From contig CAXXMV010000008.1 of NCBI GenBank assembly GCA_963662285.2, positions 1,578,992 to 1,642,991 of the forward strand: a stretch of DNA of 64,000 bases. The letters are read 5' to 3'. The position numbers and the translations under genes were made by a program. Below, piece after piece: positions 48,227-53,101 of this stretch. The notes under the pieces are model-generated. The model saw only the letters and a list, made by a program, of their open reading frames with translations. It was not told where the DNA came from and searched no databases. Position 1 is the stretch's first letter. Every line of letters begins with the position of its first letter. This stretch comes from a bacterium (GTDB taxonomy: Bacteria > Hinthialibacterota > Hinthialibacteria > Hinthialibacterales > Hinthialibacteraceae).

Positions 48227-48934
48227 ATGATGCAGTACCTTGAAAACAAAACCATATTAATCGCATCCGGGCCGACTTTCGCCCCCATAGATGCGGTGCG
48301 TTCTTTGACCAATCGTTCCACCGGGCGTTTGGGCAGCGTCATCGCTTATACCTTGATGAAACGCGGCGCCAAGGTCCGATTTCTTGCAGGAGAAACCAGC
48401 CTGACCCCCGCCTTGCTCTATCCCGGAGAGAATATGTCCCGTATTGAGCAAGAGAGCTTCACCACCGTTCCACAATTAAAAGAGTGCATTCAGCGCAATT
48501 TATCCCGGTATCCAATCGATGCGGTATTGATGGCGGCGGCGGTTTTGGATTATATCCCGGTCGATGTGCAACAAGGTAAGCAACGGTCTGATCGGGATGA
48601 ATGGACTATCCGTCTGCAACGCGGCGAGAAAATCATCGAAAGCATCCGCCAATGGTCGCCCGGCGTTTTTCTGGTGGGATTCAAACTGGAAGCGCAAATC
48701 TCTTTGGATGATCTGACCGGGCGGGCGGCTGATCTGATGCAGCGCTCCAAAGCCGGATTGGTGGTAGCCAACCGGGTGGAAGATATCGGGGGCGAACAGC
48801 ACGTCGCTTATCTTATCGACCAAGATCAAGCAAGTGGAAATTACCGCGCTTCATCACCATTATTGACCCGTGAAGCCATTGCTGAGGGATTGGCTGATAA
48901 ATTAGAGCATTATTTCGCATCTCAACCAAAATAA
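48227..48934 (+). CDS. coaB: Phosphopantothenate-cysteine ligase (stand-alone CoaB)
   Basis: SGPTFAPIDAVRSLTNRSTGRLG, MAAAVLDY, LVGFKLE, VVAN. Confidence 0.85.
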   Translation: MMQYLENKTILIASGPTFAPIDAVRSLTNRSTGRLGSVIAYTLMKRGAKVRFLAGETSLTPALLYPGENMSRIEQESFTTVPQLKECIQRNLSRYPIDAVLMAAAVLDYIPVDVQQGKQRSDRDEWTIRLQRGEKIIESIRQWSPGVFLVGFKLEAQISLDDLTGRAADLMQRSKAGLVVANRVEDIGGEQHVAYLIDQDQASGNYRASSPLLTREAIAEGLADKLEHYFASQPK

Positions 48935-48949
48935 TTGCGGAGGAAAATC

Positions 48950-49498
48950 ATGGCGCTGAAAGATAAAAAGATACTGCTTGGAGTAACCGGAGGCATCGCA
49001 GCCTATAAAGCAGCCTACCTGATCCGCTTGCTTAAAAAAGAACAGGCCGATGTCCACGTAATCATGACGAAAAGCGCACAAAATTTCATCACTCCCCTGA
49101 CTCTGGGAATCCTCTCTGAAAATCCCGTGGCGACCGAAATGTTCGACGCTGCCTCACGCAATGAAGTGCGTCATATATCATGGGCGGATTGGGCTGAATT
49201 GGCGCTGATTGCTCCAGCCACCGCCAATATCATCGGTAAATCGGCTAATGGAATCGCTGACGATATGCTATCCAGCATCATCCTGGCTCTGCAATGCCCG
49301 GTAGTTTTCGCGCCAGCCATGCATCATCAGATGTGGACGCATCCAGCCGTCCAGCGCAACATCGAAACGCTCAAAGGCTTCGGTTATAAAATCATTGAAC
49401 CGGACGCGGGAGAACTCGCTTCAGGAGACATTGGCGTAGGCCGCATGCAGGAACCGGAAACTATCGTTGAATTTATCAAGCAATTATATAGCAGTTAG
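48950..49498 (+). CDS. coaC: Phosphopantothenoylcysteine decarboxylase (stand-alone CoaC)
   Basis: LGVTGGIAAYK, APATANIIGK..NGIADD, APAMH..M, GELASGDIGVGRM; GGAGG RBS. Confidence 0.9.
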   Translation: MALKDKKILLGVTGGIAAYKAAYLIRLLKKEQADVHVIMTKSAQNFITPLTLGILSENPVATEMFDAASRNEVRHISWADWAELALIAPATANIIGKSANGIADDMLSSIILALQCPVVFAPAMHHQMWTHPAVQRNIETLKGFGYKIIEPDAGELASGDIGVGRMQEPETIVEFIKQLYSS

Positions 49499-50100: not shown

Positions 50101-50454
50101 TCAATTTTTAACGAGTTGGCTCTGGCGTGGGTGTATGCAACAGGAAATTTCCGCATGTTCTTTTTGTTTAGGATGAACCGAAATCTCCACATCCTGGTCG
50201 AGAGCGGTTAGGAATTCCATCAAGCGGCCTAGCGAAAAGTTGCCTGAACGGTTTCTCATCAGGGCGGAAACGTGAGGCTGTTTAATTCCAAGAACCTTGC
50301 CTGCTTCAATTTGCGTAAGGCTGCGTTCTTTTATGATGTTATGAATTTGCAGCGTCAAATTTGCTTTAATCAACTCCTGCTCTGGATTAGCAAAACCCAA
50401 GTCAGCAAAGATATTACCGTTGCTTTCTTCAATTTGTACTGCTTCTTTCGTCAT
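50101..50454 (-). CDS. HigA-like XRE antitoxin (HTH_37)
   Basis: SNGNIFADLG, LTQIEAGKVLGIKQPHVSALM..FSLGRLMEFLTALDQDVEI. Confidence 0.88.
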   Translation of the reverse strand: MTKEAVQIEESNGNIFADLGFANPEQELIKANLTLQIHNIIKERSLTQIEAGKVLGIKQPHVSALMRNRSGNFSLGRLMEFLTALDQDVEISVHPKQKEHAEISCCIHPRQSQLVKN

Positions 50455-50653
50455 TTCAATTCTGCCTTCTTTTTGTAGTCTTCTTTGGCTTCGGACTTTT
50501 CTTCATTAAAGGGACTCGGCCTACTGAACATTTCTTTTACTGCCGGGAGGATTTTCGGTGGAGCGTCTAAGGCATCACAAAACTCTTCCCATTTTTCTGG
50601 TGATAAGACAAACTTGGTTTGTCGATTTCCTTGGAATTATCCATATTAGACAT
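50451..50653 (-). pseudogene. Frameshifted DUF1778 (TacA-like) antitoxin fragment
   Basis: MSNMDNSKEID then, after a 1-nt shift, QTKFVLSPEKWEEFCDALDAPPKILPAVKEMFSRPSPF...EAKEDYKKKAELK*. Confidence 0.55.
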
Positions 50654-50795
50654 GATGTTACATCCTCTGATTCATTTTTCTTTATTAGTATACCAAGATA
50701 TGATCCCATTGAGCTATCTGTAATCGCTTGCTCACCAGATCGATGCCTTCTCAATAAACAGTTTATAATATAAGTCCAAGAAATTCAAAAATTTC

Positions 50796-51650
50796 TTGAC
50801 TGTTAAGAAAATACTTTATAAACTTTGGAAATCAGTGGATGATTTATTCGGATACAAAGAGTTGATAACGGGTGGGGATATGACAGATATATTCAATAGT
50901 TGGAGAAAAAGGATAGAGGGTGATGGCCCAATTGAAAAACATATATTACTTTTAAAATTGAAAGATATTTTAGAAAACTCACCTGATTTTGGTGTAAGAT
51001 CAAATTTCGATTCTTCTTCACCTCAAAGGCAATGGTTATCACAAGTTAAGGCTCTTTTATCTCGTTTAGGATTCGAAAACAAAATGAAATTTGAATCATC
51101 TTTTAATTCTCTTCCACATTCATGGAAATATGCGATTATTCGAATACAAGGGCAAGTCTTAGATGCTATTGAAGAAATTAAACTTGATTTGGAGTTAGAT
51201 GATCGTAGCGAAATCGGTAGTGCTTATGCTCCAGGTGATGTCTATAGGTTTTATGCTGATCTCAAAGAAATTATTAATTCTGCTAAAAGCCAGATCATGA
51301 TAGTTGACCCATATTTCGATGGGGTTGCTTTTAAAGATTATCTTTCAACTATCAATTGTGATATTAATATTCAAATTCTTGCTAATAGATATTCAAAGGA
51401 TATTAATTCTTATGTAAGCAAGCATCAGGATCAATATAGTACAGACATATATATTAGAAAAAGCAAAGAACTACATGATCGTATTATATTTATTGATGAT
51501 GATATTGCATGGATAATTGGCGGCTCAATCAAAGATGCAGGTAAAAAAGCCACATACCTTATCCCTTTGCAGCCATCATTATCTGTTAAGAAAAAAGAAA
51601 TATATGCTGAAATTTGGCAGAGAGCACAACCTGTTGAAGCAGATGCCTAA
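50796..51650 (+). CDS. Protein with C-terminal PLD-like nuclease domain
   Basis: IMIVDPY and LHDRIIFIDD..WIIGGSIKDAG (HDR-type PLD variant); true start probably later than 50796. Confidence 0.65.
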   Translation: MTVKKILYKLWKSVDDLFGYKELITGGDMTDIFNSWRKRIEGDGPIEKHILLLKLKDILENSPDFGVRSNFDSSSPQRQWLSQVKALLSRLGFENKMKFESSFNSLPHSWKYAIIRIQGQVLDAIEEIKLDLELDDRSEIGSAYAPGDVYRFYADLKEIINSAKSQIMIVDPYFDGVAFKDYLSTINCDINIQILANRYSKDINSYVSKHQDQYSTDIYIRKSKELHDRIIFIDDDIAWIIGGSIKDAGKKATYLIPLQPSLSVKKKEIYAEIWQRAQPVEADA

Positions 51651-51784
51651 TAAAACAATAATTATGATAAGCGGATCGAGTGCAAGGCGAAGCCAGCCCT
51701 TGAAGAATGCATAAAATAGAAAGTTATAATATCATAGTCTGACCGTTTGTTGGTCTTGCCCTTGATGACCATGCGCCTATTGGA

Positions 51785-52159
51785 GTGAGTAAAGTGGATA
51801 CCTTTAAGCAATTTCTTTTAAAACAAGAAAAAATTGAGAAAATTCTTCTTTACGAGCATGAAATTTATAAAAGTATTCCAGGAACTAAAAAATCCTATAG
51901 ACAAGATTCTGAAAACACCAATACCATGATCCAAAAACATTCACATATCTATGCAAAACCTAAAGGAGGCGGAAAAGAATTGTACGCAGTAAATATTGAT
52001 GGTAGTGGTCATGATGGTTCTAGTGGTATAGAAATCCCTTTTGTACAAGCTGATTATTTGAGATCAATTGGTTACGACATCAACTCCAGCAATATTCTAG
52101 AAAGTATGATTTTAGATAGTCTTAACAAAGAGCAGTTTTCACTCGTTATTTTTGTATAA
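51785..52159 (+). CDS. Hypothetical protein with HxH...NxDGxxHD motif
   Basis: YRQD..KHSHIY..AVNIDGSGHDG; AT-rich. Confidence 0.6.
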   Translation: MSKVDTFKQFLLKQEKIEKILLYEHEIYKSIPGTKKSYRQDSENTNTMIQKHSHIYAKPKGGGKELYAVNIDGSGHDGSSGIEIPFVQADYLRSIGYDINSSNILESMILDSLNKEQFSLVIFV

Positions 52160-52275
52160 TAAGAGAACACTATTACGTCGGGTATTAGGATAAACTGTTG
52201 AGTTGTGAAAGTGTTTTTTCGGAAGTTTAATCCAAGGAAATAATGAAAAGCAGAGATAAATAAAGACGGTGATTT

Positions 52276-52391
52276 TGCCCGAGGCGGGACTCGAACCCGT
52301 ACAGACTTAGTCTACTAGTTTCCTAAATACTCCTTATCATGAAAGAAATATTTAGGAAAACTAGCGTGTCTACCAATTCCACCACTCGGGC
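52276..52391 (-). tRNA. tRNA-Leu-like gene with 33 extra nt forming an extended anticodon hairpin
   Basis: Acceptor GCCCGAG/CTCGGGC+A73, Leu-type D arm GTGGAATTGGTAGACAC, stem CTAGT/ACTAG enclosing 40 nt instead of 7, long variable arm TAGAC/GTCTG, T arm GGGTTCGAGTCCC. Confidence 0.8.
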
Positions 52392-52416
52392 TAATTTTCC
52401 GAATAATATTATATAA

Positions 52417-52435
52417 GGCAATATCCATACCAAAA
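52417..52435 (-). promoter_or_regulatory. Sigma54-like promoter upstream of the tRNA-Leu-like gene
   Basis: Minus strand TTTTGGTATGGATATTGCC (GG-N10-GC); aligns with the motifs at 5616 and 44468. Confidence 0.5.
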
Positions 52436-52639
52436 CATAATGCGCTGATTTTTTGTGGTTTGCGATTCTATTTACTATCACCTAAGGATTTTTTGGCACA
52501 CAAACAAGGAAAGGATTGTGCCAAAATGGATATCATTAAAAGACGTATAAAAAAGTGTGGGTGACAATGCATCCTACGCAACATAGGACAATATTAAGAT
52601 GAGCGTTCTGAATCGCCTTGATACCGAACTCCGCCACAA

Positions 52640-53101
52640 TCAGTATCCCATATTCAAATGTTGCGCTTGTTCAGCCAGTTGATCGAGGGCTTTTCTGCGT
52701 TCCGCCTGGTTTTGTTCTTTATATTGCTGCACATCCTTGAACAGAATCCGTCGGTGGGTTCCAACTTTGCGGAAAGGGATTGCTCCTTCATCCAACAGCC
52801 CGACCAGGAAAGGCCGGGATACATTCAGTAACTCCGCCGCCTGTTGGGTCGTAAGTTCCGTCTGCGTGGGGATCATTGTTACTGTGTTGCCCTTCGCCAT
52901 TTCTTTAAGAACATTTACTAAAAGATGTATGGCCGAGGCGGGTAGAATAATATCTTCGCTTGTTGCGCCATCTTCTCTAATCTGGATGGGTAAGTCTTTG
53001 CTTGTTTCCGAAAAGCATGCCAAACGTTGGCTAGATTCCTGAGCCAGACTGGTTTCCGCTTGTGTTGGCGTAATTGATTCAAAGGAACCGGAGTTTTTCA
53101 T
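52640..53101 (-). CDS. Excisionase-family HTH_17 DNA-binding protein (antitoxin type usually paired with a PIN toxin)
   Basis: ELTTQQAAELLNVSRPFLVGLLDEGAIPFRKVGTHRRI...ALDQLAEQAQHLNMGY. Confidence 0.88.
   Translation of the reverse strand: MKNSGSFESITPTQAETSLAQESSQRLACFSETSKDLPIQIREDGATSEDIILPASAIHLLVNVLKEMAKGNTVTMIPTQTELTTQQAAELLNVSRPFLVGLLDEGAIPFRKVGTHRRILFKDVQQYKEQNQAERRKALDQLAEQAQHLNMGY

What the first reader, a model, noticed from the sequence alone, without database searches (positions are those of the whole stretch)
52276..52391. tRNA-Leu body whose anticodon is buried in a long self-complementary hairpin
Seen: minus strand GCCCGAGTGGTGGAATTGGTAGACACG-CTAGT-TTTCCTAAATATTTCTTTCATGATAAGGAGTATTTAGGAA-ACTAG-TAGACTAAGTCTGT-ACGGGTTCGAGTCCCGC-CTCGGGCA. 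Acceptor, D, variable and T arms are intact (one A-C mismatch at the base of the T stem). The anticodon stem encloses 40 nt that fold into a continuous ~21-bp arm (one bulged U, two G-U pairs) with loop UCAUGAU. The 3' strand holds a Leu(UAG) loop (TT-TAG-GA) paired with its own antisense TCCTAAA. The insert is far too short for a group I intron, and no clean 33-nt excision restores a Leu anticodon; a 31-nt excision gives a 6-bp stem with a UAG loop. Known: bacterial LeuRS relies on A73 and D/variable-arm architecture rather than the anticodon. Inference: a chargeable but non-decoding tRNA mimic (aminoacyl donor, decoy for anticodon nucleases, regulatory RNA), a masked pre-tRNA needing cleavage and ligation, or the scar of an element that integrates in the anticodon loop.
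Basis: partly seen in the sequence, partly recalled or inferred. Interest (0 to 1): 0.9.

Follow-up and report, generated by a model that had tools for sequence, protein, structure and literature searches.

The report
tRNA-Leu gene with rod-shaped anticodon arm
A leucine tRNA gene in a small foreign-looking stretch of this bacterial genome has its anticodon loop replaced by a long hairpin, so as encoded it cannot read codons; it is a one-off in this genome and most likely a disabled spare copy, though similar rod-armed tRNA-Leu genes turn up elsewhere.

Summary
Window 52276-52391 (-) scores as a full-length tRNA in Rfam (40.1 bits, cut-off 29). Its Leu-type acceptor, D, variable and T arms are intact. 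A 40-nt loop folds with the anticodon stem into a 21-bp rod (-21.7 kcal/mol, z -6.1). An independent contig of a public run carries it unchanged.

- It is the only insert-bearing tRNA among 44 in the genome.
- The hairpin is single-copy, and no relative searched has it.
- A normal tRNA-Leu(UAG) exists elsewhere in the genome.
- It lies in a 32-36% GC islet beside a PLD-like candidate defence gene.
- A perfect TATAAT sits 16 nt upstream.

With a 5-bp stem, no contiguous excision restores a Leu anticodon. It is not a group I intron, a bulge-helix-bulge intron or a repeat element.

Pattern scans found analogues:
- Short, covarying hairpin inserts in phage tRNA-Leu(UAA).
- Rod-type tRNA-Leu genes in other phyla that also cannot be restored by excision. 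One pair of paralogues is far better conserved than its flanks and sits beside defence genes.

Verdict: real, and non-decoding as encoded. My odds are a disabled spare copy about 0.45, a co-opted tRNA-like RNA about 0.25, and a spliced pre-tRNA about 0.15. No expression data exist.

The parts
52276..52391 (-). tRNA-Leu-type gene, 116 nt, discriminator A73, no encoded CCA
   Evidence: Rfam RF00005 at 40.1 bits over model positions 1-71. The cloverleaf with the rod lies within 1.5-4.6 kcal/mol of the MFE.
52360..52391 (-). 5' half: acceptor 5' strand, D arm, 5' strand of the anticodon stem (CTAGT)
   Evidence: The D arm is 96% identical over positions 1-27 to a relative's tRNA-Leu(GAG).
52320..52359 (-). 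40-nt loop in place of the 7-nt anticodon loop; 25% G+C by my count
52343..52356 (-). 5' arm of the inner 14-bp helix, antisense to the anticodon-loop-like 3' arm
   Evidence: Fold; inverted repeat I1.
52336..52342 (-). apical loop UCAUGAU (contains the DNA palindrome TCATGA)
52322..52335 (-). 3' arm of the inner helix; 52321-52327 reads TTTAGGA, the Leu(UAG) loop seen in a relative
   Evidence: A relative (G018) has CTAGA-TTTAGGA-TCTAG in its tRNA-Leu(UAG).
52276..52319 (-). 3' half: anticodon stem 3' strand (ACTAG), 14-nt variable arm, T arm with A-C at its base, acceptor 3' strand, A73
52408..52413 (-). perfect TATAAT, 16 nt before the tRNA 5' end; the best -35 candidate is poor (TTTTGG)
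   Evidence: Many bona fide tRNA genes of this genome have TTGACA/TATAAT-like boxes at similar distance. The consensus scan listed no promoter on this strand.
50400..52600 (.). low-G+C islet (32-36% against 44% for the genome) holding the tRNA at its edge
   Evidence: genome G+C.
50796..51650 (+). PLD-like protein, candidate single-gene defence PDC-S05
   Evidence: PADLOC PDC-S05 E 5.1e-21. Pfam PLDc_2 E 2.2e-4, below its cut-off.
51785..52159 (+). 124-aa protein of unknown function, convergent with the tRNA
   Evidence: No family in Pfam above cut-off, NCBIfam or PADLOC. The Atlas nearest cluster is DUF6367-like, a lead only.
52640..53101 (-). excisionase-family HTH_17 DNA-binding protein upstream of the tRNA
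   Evidence: Pfam HTH_17 E 2.6e-12. TIGR01764 'excise' E 2.2e-15. Not found next to the epimerase orthologue in 29 relatives' loci.

Best explanation
This is a tRNA-Leu gene of the UAG type that is not one of the genome's standard set. It lies in a small, low-G+C accessory stretch beside a candidate defence gene. A quasi-palindromic insert of 31-33 nt has turned its anticodon loop into a rod.

Inferred steps:
- The gene can probably be transcribed from its own -10 box.
- The transcript can fold into the tRNA L-shape, so end-processing enzymes and LeuRS could still act on it. By established knowledge, bacterial LeuRS reads A73 and the core, not the anticodon.

What the sequence shows: the anticodon triplet is paired inside a 21-bp helix, so as encoded it cannot read codons.

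Within this reading I put about 0.45 on a disabled, redundant spare copy with no selected role. I put about 0.25 on a co-opted, non-decoding tRNA-like RNA. How the insert arose is unresolved.
For: - The tRNA body is intact and the rod is far more stable than chance.
- The anticodon arm resembles the family's Leu(UAG) arm: CTAGT..TTTAGGA..ACTAG here, CTAGA-TTTAGGA-TCTAG in G018.
- A normal tRNA-Leu(UAG) is present at C6:1273116, with GAG, UAA and CAG genes also present.
- It is the only insert-bearing hit among 44 Rfam tRNA hits in the genome.
- 0 of 8 excisions restore a Leu anticodon with a 5-bp stem.
- No group I or other Rfam family matches. EndA was not found.
- The setting is low in G+C, with a PDC-S05-like gene.
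- None of 29 relatives' loci has a tRNA-Leu within 1.5 kb downstream of the syntenic epimerase.
- A perfect TATAAT lies 16 nt upstream.
- An independent contig supports the sequence.
Against: - There is no expression or charging evidence at all.
- The insert is nearly perfect, and both imperfect pairs are G-U on the tRNA strand. The sense arm folds at -21.7 kcal/mol and the antisense arm at -13.8. That fits selection on the RNA, or simply a young insert; two such transitions have a 1 in 4 chance of both giving G-U.
- In the analogue G041, the interrupted tRNA differs at 1 of 118 nt between two paralogues, while the 748-nt alignment around it is 83.8% identical. That argues such rods can be under constraint, or undergo gene conversion.
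- A 6-bp-stem product with a UAG loop is formally possible, and RtcB is present.
Confidence: 0.7

Rival explanations
1. It is a masked pre-tRNA. The hairpin is a short non-group-I intron, like the 'enigmatic' introns reported in large phages. A host or element nuclease cuts it out and RtcB rejoins the halves, giving tRNA-Leu(UAG) with a 6-bp anticodon stem, or a 7-nt UUAGGAA loop.
For: - Short hairpin inserts that can be excised cleanly to CTTAAAA occur in tRNA-Leu(UAA) on viral contigs and in tRNA arrays, in three families with compensatory changes.
- Devoto et al. (preprint 10.1101/356790, passages read) report conserved introns in Lak megaphage tRNAs.
- RtcB is present in the genome.
- A 31-nt excision leaves TTTAGGA with a 6-bp stem.
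Against: - No excision with the normal 5-bp stem gives a Leu anticodon (0 of 8).
- There is no bulge-helix-bulge motif: the helix is continuous with one 1-nt bulge.
- EndA was not found, and no ribozyme or intron family matches.
- In the phage families the anticodon lies on the 5' side of the insert. Here it lies on the 3' side.
- The RtcB match is in two pieces in different frames.
- It is the only such tRNA in the genome.
Confidence: 0.15
2. It is a scar of DNA-level events at an integration hotspot. An element that targets the anticodon stem-loop of tRNA-Leu inserted or excised imprecisely and left a palindromic footprint.
For: - The tRNA lies at the edge of a low-G+C islet with a defence-type gene and next to an excisionase-family gene.
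- Analogues also lie beside accessory or defence genes: PDC-S32/AbiJ-like, GajB-like, a DNA methylase, an H-NS-like protein.
- One arm of the insert is the inverted copy of the loop-bearing arm.
Against: - No integrase in the ORFs scanned from 42.5 to 53.1 kb.
- No second copy of the tRNA 3' half or of the hairpin in the genome.
- The inserts of the analogues share no sequence.
- No known recombinase is established to leave 30-nt palindromes; this is my recollection, not a tested point.
- This reading explains origin, not present function, and overlaps with the best explanation.
Confidence: 0.1
3. It is an assembly or sequencing artefact: a fold-back chimera inside a normal tRNA-Leu gene.
For: - The genome is a metagenome-type assembly of 8 contigs at 92.5% completeness.
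- Other contigs in the scans show obvious tandem duplications inside tRNA genes (for example L049, L078, L082).
Against: - A separately built Logan contig of run X1 (8505 nt, depth 6.5) carries the whole 1001-nt stretch with 0 differences. It may come from the same sample.
- The two arms differ by two transitions and two indels, which a fold-back copy would not produce.
Confidence: 0.04

Closest known systems
Group I intron-interrupted bacterial tRNA genes (classical tRNA-Leu(UAA), CUU/intron/AAAA)
   Same: The interruption lies in the anticodon loop of a bacterial tRNA-Leu gene, and the exons form a normal tRNA body.
   Different: The insert is 31-40 nt. No Intron_gpI or any other Rfam family matches. 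No excision restores the loop with a 5-bp stem. The survey by Williams (preprint 10.1101/2020.01.27.920355, passages read) lists only group I introns.
'Enigmatic' introns in Lak megaphage tRNAs (Devoto et al., preprint 10.1101/356790)
   Same: Both are short, non-group-I inserts in tRNA genes of bacterial or phage origin with no known splicing route. I found comparable short inserts in tRNA-Leu(UAA) on viral contigs.
   Different: Those are reported as conserved across phage genomes and predicted to be excisable. Ours is a singleton in a bacterial chromosome and is not cleanly excisable.
Archaeal/eukaryal tRNA introns (bulge-helix-bulge, EndA/TSEN plus RtcB)
   Same: The insert pairs with the anticodon region and lengthens the anticodon stem. 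An RtcB homologue is present.
   Different: There are no 3-nt bulges flanking a 4-bp helix. The insert is not at 37/38. No EndA family match in the genome.
Rod-type tRNA-Leu genes found here in other phyla (L040/L066 in G041, L170, L151, G450)
   Same: - A Leu-type body.
- A 5-bp anticodon stem continued by U32-U33 paired to A-A.
- An unpaired base or bases on the 5' strand after 7-8 bp, then 9-14 bp and a 6-7-nt loop.
- None of the three tested (L170, L066, L151) gives a Leu anticodon by excision.
- Accessory or defence neighbours.
   Different: There is no sequence similarity between the inserts, and the parent isoacceptors differ (G041's derives from Leu(GAG)). This is an analogy of form, not shown homology. 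G450 can be restored to TTTGGAA by my reading.
Small palindromic repeat elements (REP/MITE-like) inserted in RNA genes
   Same: A palindromic insert inside a structural RNA gene. Bacteroidota tRNA-Leu genes in my scans carry a shared CCTGCCTGC..GCAGGCAGG palindrome.
   Different: Our hairpin has no second copy in its genome and none in 34 phylum relatives.

Membership tests
tRNA (Rfam RF00005), class II Leu type | Covariance-model score above the gathering cut-off over the full model | tested here: met
   40.1 bits against 29, model positions 1-71. It is the lowest of 44 hits in the genome.
tRNA (Rfam RF00005), class II Leu type | Long variable arm and discriminator A73 | tested here: met
   The 14-nt variable region with a 3-bp stem aligns with the genome's other tRNA-Leu genes, and A73 is present.
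tRNA (Rfam RF00005), class II Leu type | 7-nt anticodon loop presenting an unpaired anticodon | tested here: not met
   The loop is 40 nt and folds into a continuous helix; TAG is paired.
tRNA (Rfam RF00005), class II Leu type | Aminoacylation by LeuRS | not testable with these tools
   Needs an in vitro charging assay.
Group I intron in tRNA | Catalytic core (Rfam Intron_gpI), intron of roughly 200 nt or more | tested here: not met
   Only RF00005 matched at E up to 1 in window 52200-52480. The insert is 31-40 nt.
Bulge-helix-bulge (archaeal-type) tRNA intron | Two 3-nt bulges separated by a 4-bp helix at the splice sites | tested here: not met
   The fold is 7 bp, a 1-nt bulge and 14 bp.
Bulge-helix-bulge (archaeal-type) tRNA intron | Splicing endonuclease (PF01974) in the genome | tested here: not met
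   0 matches in G000, which is 92.5% complete; the control rings in 4 archaea.
Short phage-type tRNA inserts (Lak-like; families A1-A3 found here) | A contiguous excision restores a canonical 5-bp stem and 7-nt loop of the expected isotype | tested here: not met
   0 of 8 options. Families A1-A3 restore CTTAAAA by my reading.
Short phage-type tRNA inserts (Lak-like; families A1-A3 found here) | Insert conserved or covarying among relatives | tested here: inconclusive
   No relative with the insert was found: 40 relatives, 34 phylum genomes, metagenome contigs, viral contigs. No same-genus genome is held.
REP/MITE-like palindromic repeat | Several copies in the genome | tested here: not met
   blastn-short of the 50-nt arm finds only itself; the next best hit is 15 nt.
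Bacterial Y RNA (YrlA) with tRNA-like domain | Ro60/TROVE partner gene and Rfam Y RNA match | tested here: not met
   TROVE: 0 matches in the genome. No Rfam family but tRNA matches. That YrlA is a permuted tRNA-like RNA is recalled, not tested.
tRNA-gene attachment site of an integrated element | Integrase nearby and a direct repeat of the tRNA 3' part at the far end | tested here: not met
   No integrase family in 10 ORFs from 42.5 to 53.1 kb. BLAST of the 116-mer finds no partial copy in G000 beyond two other tRNA-Leu genes.

The most novel reading that the evidence does not exclude
The gene belongs to an undescribed class of tRNA-Leu derivatives whose anticodon loop is replaced by a rod of about 20 bp with a flipped-out base near position 34. 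These are carried on mobile or defence islets and kept by selection as chargeable tRNA-like RNAs that are excluded from the ribosome. Possible roles are a decoy or sensor for enzymes that cut or modify anticodon loops, or an RNA partner of neighbouring defence genes.
Probability: 0.2. Interest if true: 0.8.

Novelty: new variant of a known kind. Interest (0 to 1): 0.5.

Why it matters
Interrupted bacterial tRNA genes are thought of as group I intron hosts. A tRNA gene with a short, non-catalytic hairpin that buries the anticodon fits no described bacterial processing route.

If it is a dead copy, it is a small curiosity. It also warns that tRNA finders will mislabel such genes, as with 'tRNA-Pro(agg) with intron' here.

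If such rods are kept by selection, they would be a new kind of tRNA-derived RNA tied to mobile and defence DNA. The conserved paralogue pair in G041 hints at this. The short inserts in phage tRNA-Leu(UAA) would then point to an unknown way of splicing or using interrupted tRNAs in bacteria and phages.

Tried and rejected
- Homologues with the insert: none found. I searched 40 relatives by BLAST and 34 other genomes of the phylum by pattern. An exact 35-nt pattern of the 3' half found nothing in metagenome contigs or viral contigs. INPHARED phages in 'distant' mode gave only 5'-half matches to ordinary tRNA-Leu genes. The collections may leave out records of the window's own genome.
- Repeat-element idea: rejected, because the hairpin is single-copy.
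- Palindrome TTCCTAAATA..TATTTAGGAA in viral contigs: 33 contigs match. They fall into a few homologous groups in non-tRNA contexts, so they are unrelated.
- tRNA-Leu(CAA) idea: G000 lacks a detectable CAA gene. The odd gene's anticodon stem is unlike the relatives' CAA stem (CCAGA/TCTGG), so I rejected it.
- Synteny as a way to bound an island: the p233-MazG-epimerase block is conserved in 17 of 19 family loci. However, 10 kb downstream in 4 relatives shares nothing with window ORFs from 25 to 64 kb at E 1e-8. No boundary could be drawn.
- Promoter and terminator consensus scan: no site on the tRNA strand near the gene. My own scan found the TATAAT.
- Expression: no RNA holder is listed for this stretch, and only contigs could be laid. 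The 138-nt high-depth contigs there are another organism's ordinary tRNA-Leu(UAA).
- Leader complementarity: a 14-nt, 86% complementarity between the 5' leader and the 5' arm (I2) was considered as a trace of templated origin. I judged it possibly chance.
- AGG reading: the UUAGGAA loop would put a Pro anticodon on a Leu body, and L170 shares it. I kept it as a minor possibility, because the arm matches the family's Leu(UAG) arm.
- Literature: five searches found nothing on short hairpin inserts in bacterial tRNA genes, other than Devoto et al. Supplements were closed, so Devoto's Table S6 was not seen.
Its match was an unrelated adjacency.

Full report
**1. What is there**

On the minus strand of window 52276-52391 lies a 116-nt sequence that Rfam's tRNA model matches end to end. 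The score is 40.1 bits against a gathering score of 29, with 36 nt scored as an insertion in the anticodon loop. ARAGORN in default mode does not see it. With introns allowed, ARAGORN reports 'tRNA-Pro(agg), 33-nt intron'. That label comes only from taking the last seven loop bases as the anticodon loop.

The body is of the leucine class II type. It aligns with the genome's four ordinary tRNA-Leu genes through the acceptor stem, D arm, 14-nt variable arm and T arm, and it ends in A73. The single flaw is an A-C at the base of the T stem.

Between the anticodon-stem strands CTAGT and ACTAG lie 40 nt. Together with the stem they fold into 7 bp, one bulged U, 14 bp and the loop UCAUGAU. The energy is -21.7 kcal/mol, against -6.7 +/- 2.5 for 200 shuffles. 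The 3' arm carries TTTAGGA, which is the anticodon loop of tRNA-Leu(UAG) in a relative of the same family (G018). The 5' arm is its antisense.

A cloverleaf with this rod lies within 1.5 to 4.6 kcal/mol of the unconstrained minimum.

**2. Is it real DNA?**

A contig built independently by Logan from public run X1 (8505 nt, depth 6.5) carries window 51900-52900 without a single difference. The run may be the one the genome was assembled from, so this rules out an assembler quirk rather than a sample-level artefact.

The two arms differ by two transitions and two one-base indels. A fold-back chimera would not give that.

**3. Setting in the genome**

- The genome (7.29 Mb, 8 contigs, 44% G+C) has 43 ordinary tRNA genes plus this one. 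This is the only one with an insert and the lowest-scoring tRNA hit.
- Ordinary tRNA-Leu genes with anticodons GAG, UAA, CAG and UAG are present, so the odd gene is redundant. CAA was not found.
- The hairpin has no second copy in the genome.
- The gene sits at the edge of a 2.2-kb stretch of 32-36% G+C. That stretch holds a PLD-like protein matching the PADLOC candidate defence family PDC-S05 (E 5e-21) and a 124-aa protein of unknown function.
- An excisionase-family HTH protein lies just upstream. I saw no integrase.
- The block p233-MazG-epimerase next to it is syntenic in 17 of 19 loci from the family. None of 29 relatives' loci has a tRNA-Leu within 1.5 kb beyond the epimerase. Ten kilobases further on, 4 relatives share nothing with this part of the window.
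- The body differs from the host's own tRNA-Leu genes by compensated stem changes.

Together these points indicate an accessory, probably acquired, gene copy.

A perfect TATAAT lies 16 nt before the 5' end. Many of the genome's real tRNA genes have strong TTGACA/TATAAT boxes at similar spacing, but here the -35 is poor. Transcription is therefore plausible but not shown. No RNA run is listed for this stretch.

**4. What it is not**

- It is not a group I intron: the insert is too short and no Rfam match exists.
- It is not an archaeal-type intron: there is no bulge-helix-bulge motif and no EndA gene.
- It is not a repeat element: it is single-copy.
- It is not a Y RNA: no TROVE gene and no Rfam match.
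- With the normal 5-bp stem, none of the 8 contiguous excisions that leave a 7-nt loop gives a leucine anticodon. They give AGG, TGG, TCG or TCC. Only if the first and last loop bases are counted as a sixth stem pair does TTTAGGA (UAG) appear.
- RtcB is present, though its match is in two pieces in different frames.

**5. Relatives and analogues**

No homologue with the insert was found. The searches covered 40 relatives, the 34 other genomes held for the phylum, metagenome contigs, viral contigs and GenBank phages. No genome of the same genus is held. The closest relatives share only about 55% protein identity in the neighbouring epimerase. Covariation in the rod therefore cannot be tested.

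To ask whether such things exist at all, I scanned three collections. The pattern was a Leu-type D arm followed 46-76 nt later by a T loop.

Hairpin inserts in or beside the anticodon loop, by my reading, were found in:
- 6 of 47 stretches in genome contigs.
- 4 of 53 distinct sequences from 88 stretches in viral contigs.

The rest were long variable arms, neighbouring T loops, masked stretches or tandem duplications.

The hairpin cases fall into two kinds.

*Kind A: cleanly excisable inserts.* Three families of 21-36-nt inserts occur in tRNA-Leu(UAA). A clean excision restores CTTAAAA in each. They lie on viral contigs and in tRNA arrays of 4 and 13 genes. Their helices change by compensation:
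- U-A becomes G-C in the inner hairpin of family A1.
- TTAT/ATAA becomes TTAGAG/CTCTAA in family A3.

These resemble the 'enigmatic' tRNA introns that Devoto et al. reported in Lak megaphages. I could not see their sequences.

*Kind B: rods like ours.* The 5-bp stem continues through U32-U33 paired to A-A. One or two unpaired bases follow on the 5' strand after 7-8 bp, then 9-14 bp and a 6-7-nt loop. The members are L170, L151, L040/L066 and G450. For the three I tested (L170, L066, L151), no excision gives a leucine anticodon.

The best-documented case is the Dehalococcoidia genome G041:
- Its two copies derive from a tRNA-Leu(GAG) type whose uninterrupted relatives read CTGTC-TTGAGGG-GGCAG.
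- The insert replaces AGGG rather than simply splitting the loop.
- The hairpin occurs only in these two genes.
- None of 150 other genomes of the order has it.
- The two copies differ at 1 of 118 nt, while the 748-nt alignment around them is 83.8% identical.
- Each lies beside a defence-type gene: PDC-S32/AbiJ-like at E 2e-23 and GajB-like at E 5e-41.

That pattern means either constraint on the whole interrupted gene or gene conversion.

The inserts of kind B share no sequence with ours. Two details recur: TCATGA at the tip in ours and in L151, and UUAGGA next to the stem in ours and in L170. With so few cases I treat both as leads only.

**6. Reading**

What follows from the sequence is that the RNA, if made, keeps everything needed for tRNA end-processing. 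By textbook knowledge of bacterial LeuRS identity (A73 and the core, not the anticodon), it also keeps what charging needs. It presents no anticodon. As encoded it is a non-decoder (confidence 0.7).

Whether that is all there is to it cannot be settled here.

- For a disabled spare copy (about 0.45): it is a singleton, it is redundant, it lies in an acquired islet, and it has no clean splice. Mutational accidents in tRNA genes of such assemblies are also common.
- For a co-opted tRNA-like RNA (about 0.25): the body and the rod are both nearly flawless. Both imperfect pairs are G-U on the tRNA strand, so the sense arm is 8 kcal/mol more stable than the antisense arm. That is weak evidence, with a chance of 1 in 4. 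The form also recurs in unrelated phyla, once with signs of constraint.
- For a spliced pre-tRNA (about 0.15): the phage families of kind A and RtcB speak for it. The excision arithmetic and the lack of any known cutter speak against it.
- An artefact is unlikely (about 0.04).

How a 31-33-nt quasi-palindrome, one arm of which is antisense to the original loop, arose is not explained by anything I tested.

**7. Novelty and score**

Short non-group-I inserts in phage tRNAs have been noted in print as unexplained. I found nothing in five literature searches on rod-type tRNA-Leu genes in bacterial chromosomes.

I file this as a new variant of a known kind, namely interrupted or pseudo tRNA genes. 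Interest is 0.5. The anatomy is truly odd and real. But the window's own copy is a singleton without expression data and may well be dead. The more promising lead is the wider set of analogues.

Noticed in passing
L090, L105, L124, L165, L231, L284, L258 (family A1); L132, L236, L295 (A2); L101, L280 (A3): Three families of 21-36-nt hairpin inserts in tRNA-Leu(UAA) genes on viral and metagenome contigs, some inside tRNA arrays. Clean excision restores CTTAAAA, and the helices change by compensation. They look like unexplained phage tRNA introns.
   Followed up: partly
L039, L075, L077 (anticodon arm); L042, L060, L095 (T arm): A shared palindrome, CCTGCCTGC..GCAGGCAGG, sits at different places inside tRNA-Leu genes of several Bacteroidota-type assemblies. 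It could be a small mobile palindromic element, or an artefact.
   Followed up: no
L047, L070, L057, L137, L198, L043, L059, L038, L067, L068: Leu-like class II tRNA bodies with very long variable arms carry non-Leu anticodons: TGG, CGG, GGA, CGC, GCC. Because LeuRS ignores the anticodon, these would mistranslate if charged.
   Followed up: no
L242 and 21 further viral loci; L096, L102, L110 and others; L048 (Prevotella): A Leu-type D arm and T arm flank a conserved 62-nt middle (TCTCAAA[A/G]TGAGATGG...) in 22 viral loci and in several gut metagenome contigs. This is a conserved tRNA-like RNA of unknown kind.
   Followed up: no
L049, L078, L082, L063, L045, L080, L085, L128: Tandem duplications of 10-35 nt inside tRNA-Leu genes of metagenome assemblies, most likely assembly errors.
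   Followed up: no
G000:C2:1547935-1549046: The genome's RtcB match comes in two adjoining pieces in different reading frames (model positions 1-153 and 173-426). This could be a frameshift, a split gene or a sequencing error.
   Followed up: no
G000 whole genome: No tRNA-Leu(CAA), tRNA-Ser(GGA) or tRNA-Arg(ACG) was found by ARAGORN or Rfam, although relatives have Leu(CAA). The genome is 92.5% complete.
   Followed up: partly
window 48227-49498: The CoaB-like (DFP) and CoaC-like (Flavoprotein) domains are two separate adjoining ORFs, with DFP first. By my recollection this is the reverse of the usual fused CoaBC order.
   Followed up: no
window 52390-52403 and 52352-52365: The 14 nt that straddle the tRNA 5' end are 86% complementary to the 5' strand of the rod, so the leader resembles the 3' arm. 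This is possibly chance.
   Followed up: partly
L351 15137-15559 (-), L352 15116-15544 (-) (G041): A 140-142-aa ORF with no family match follows each rod-type tRNA-Leu of G041 on the same strand. It is duplicated with the tRNA as a unit of about 820 nt.
   Followed up: partly
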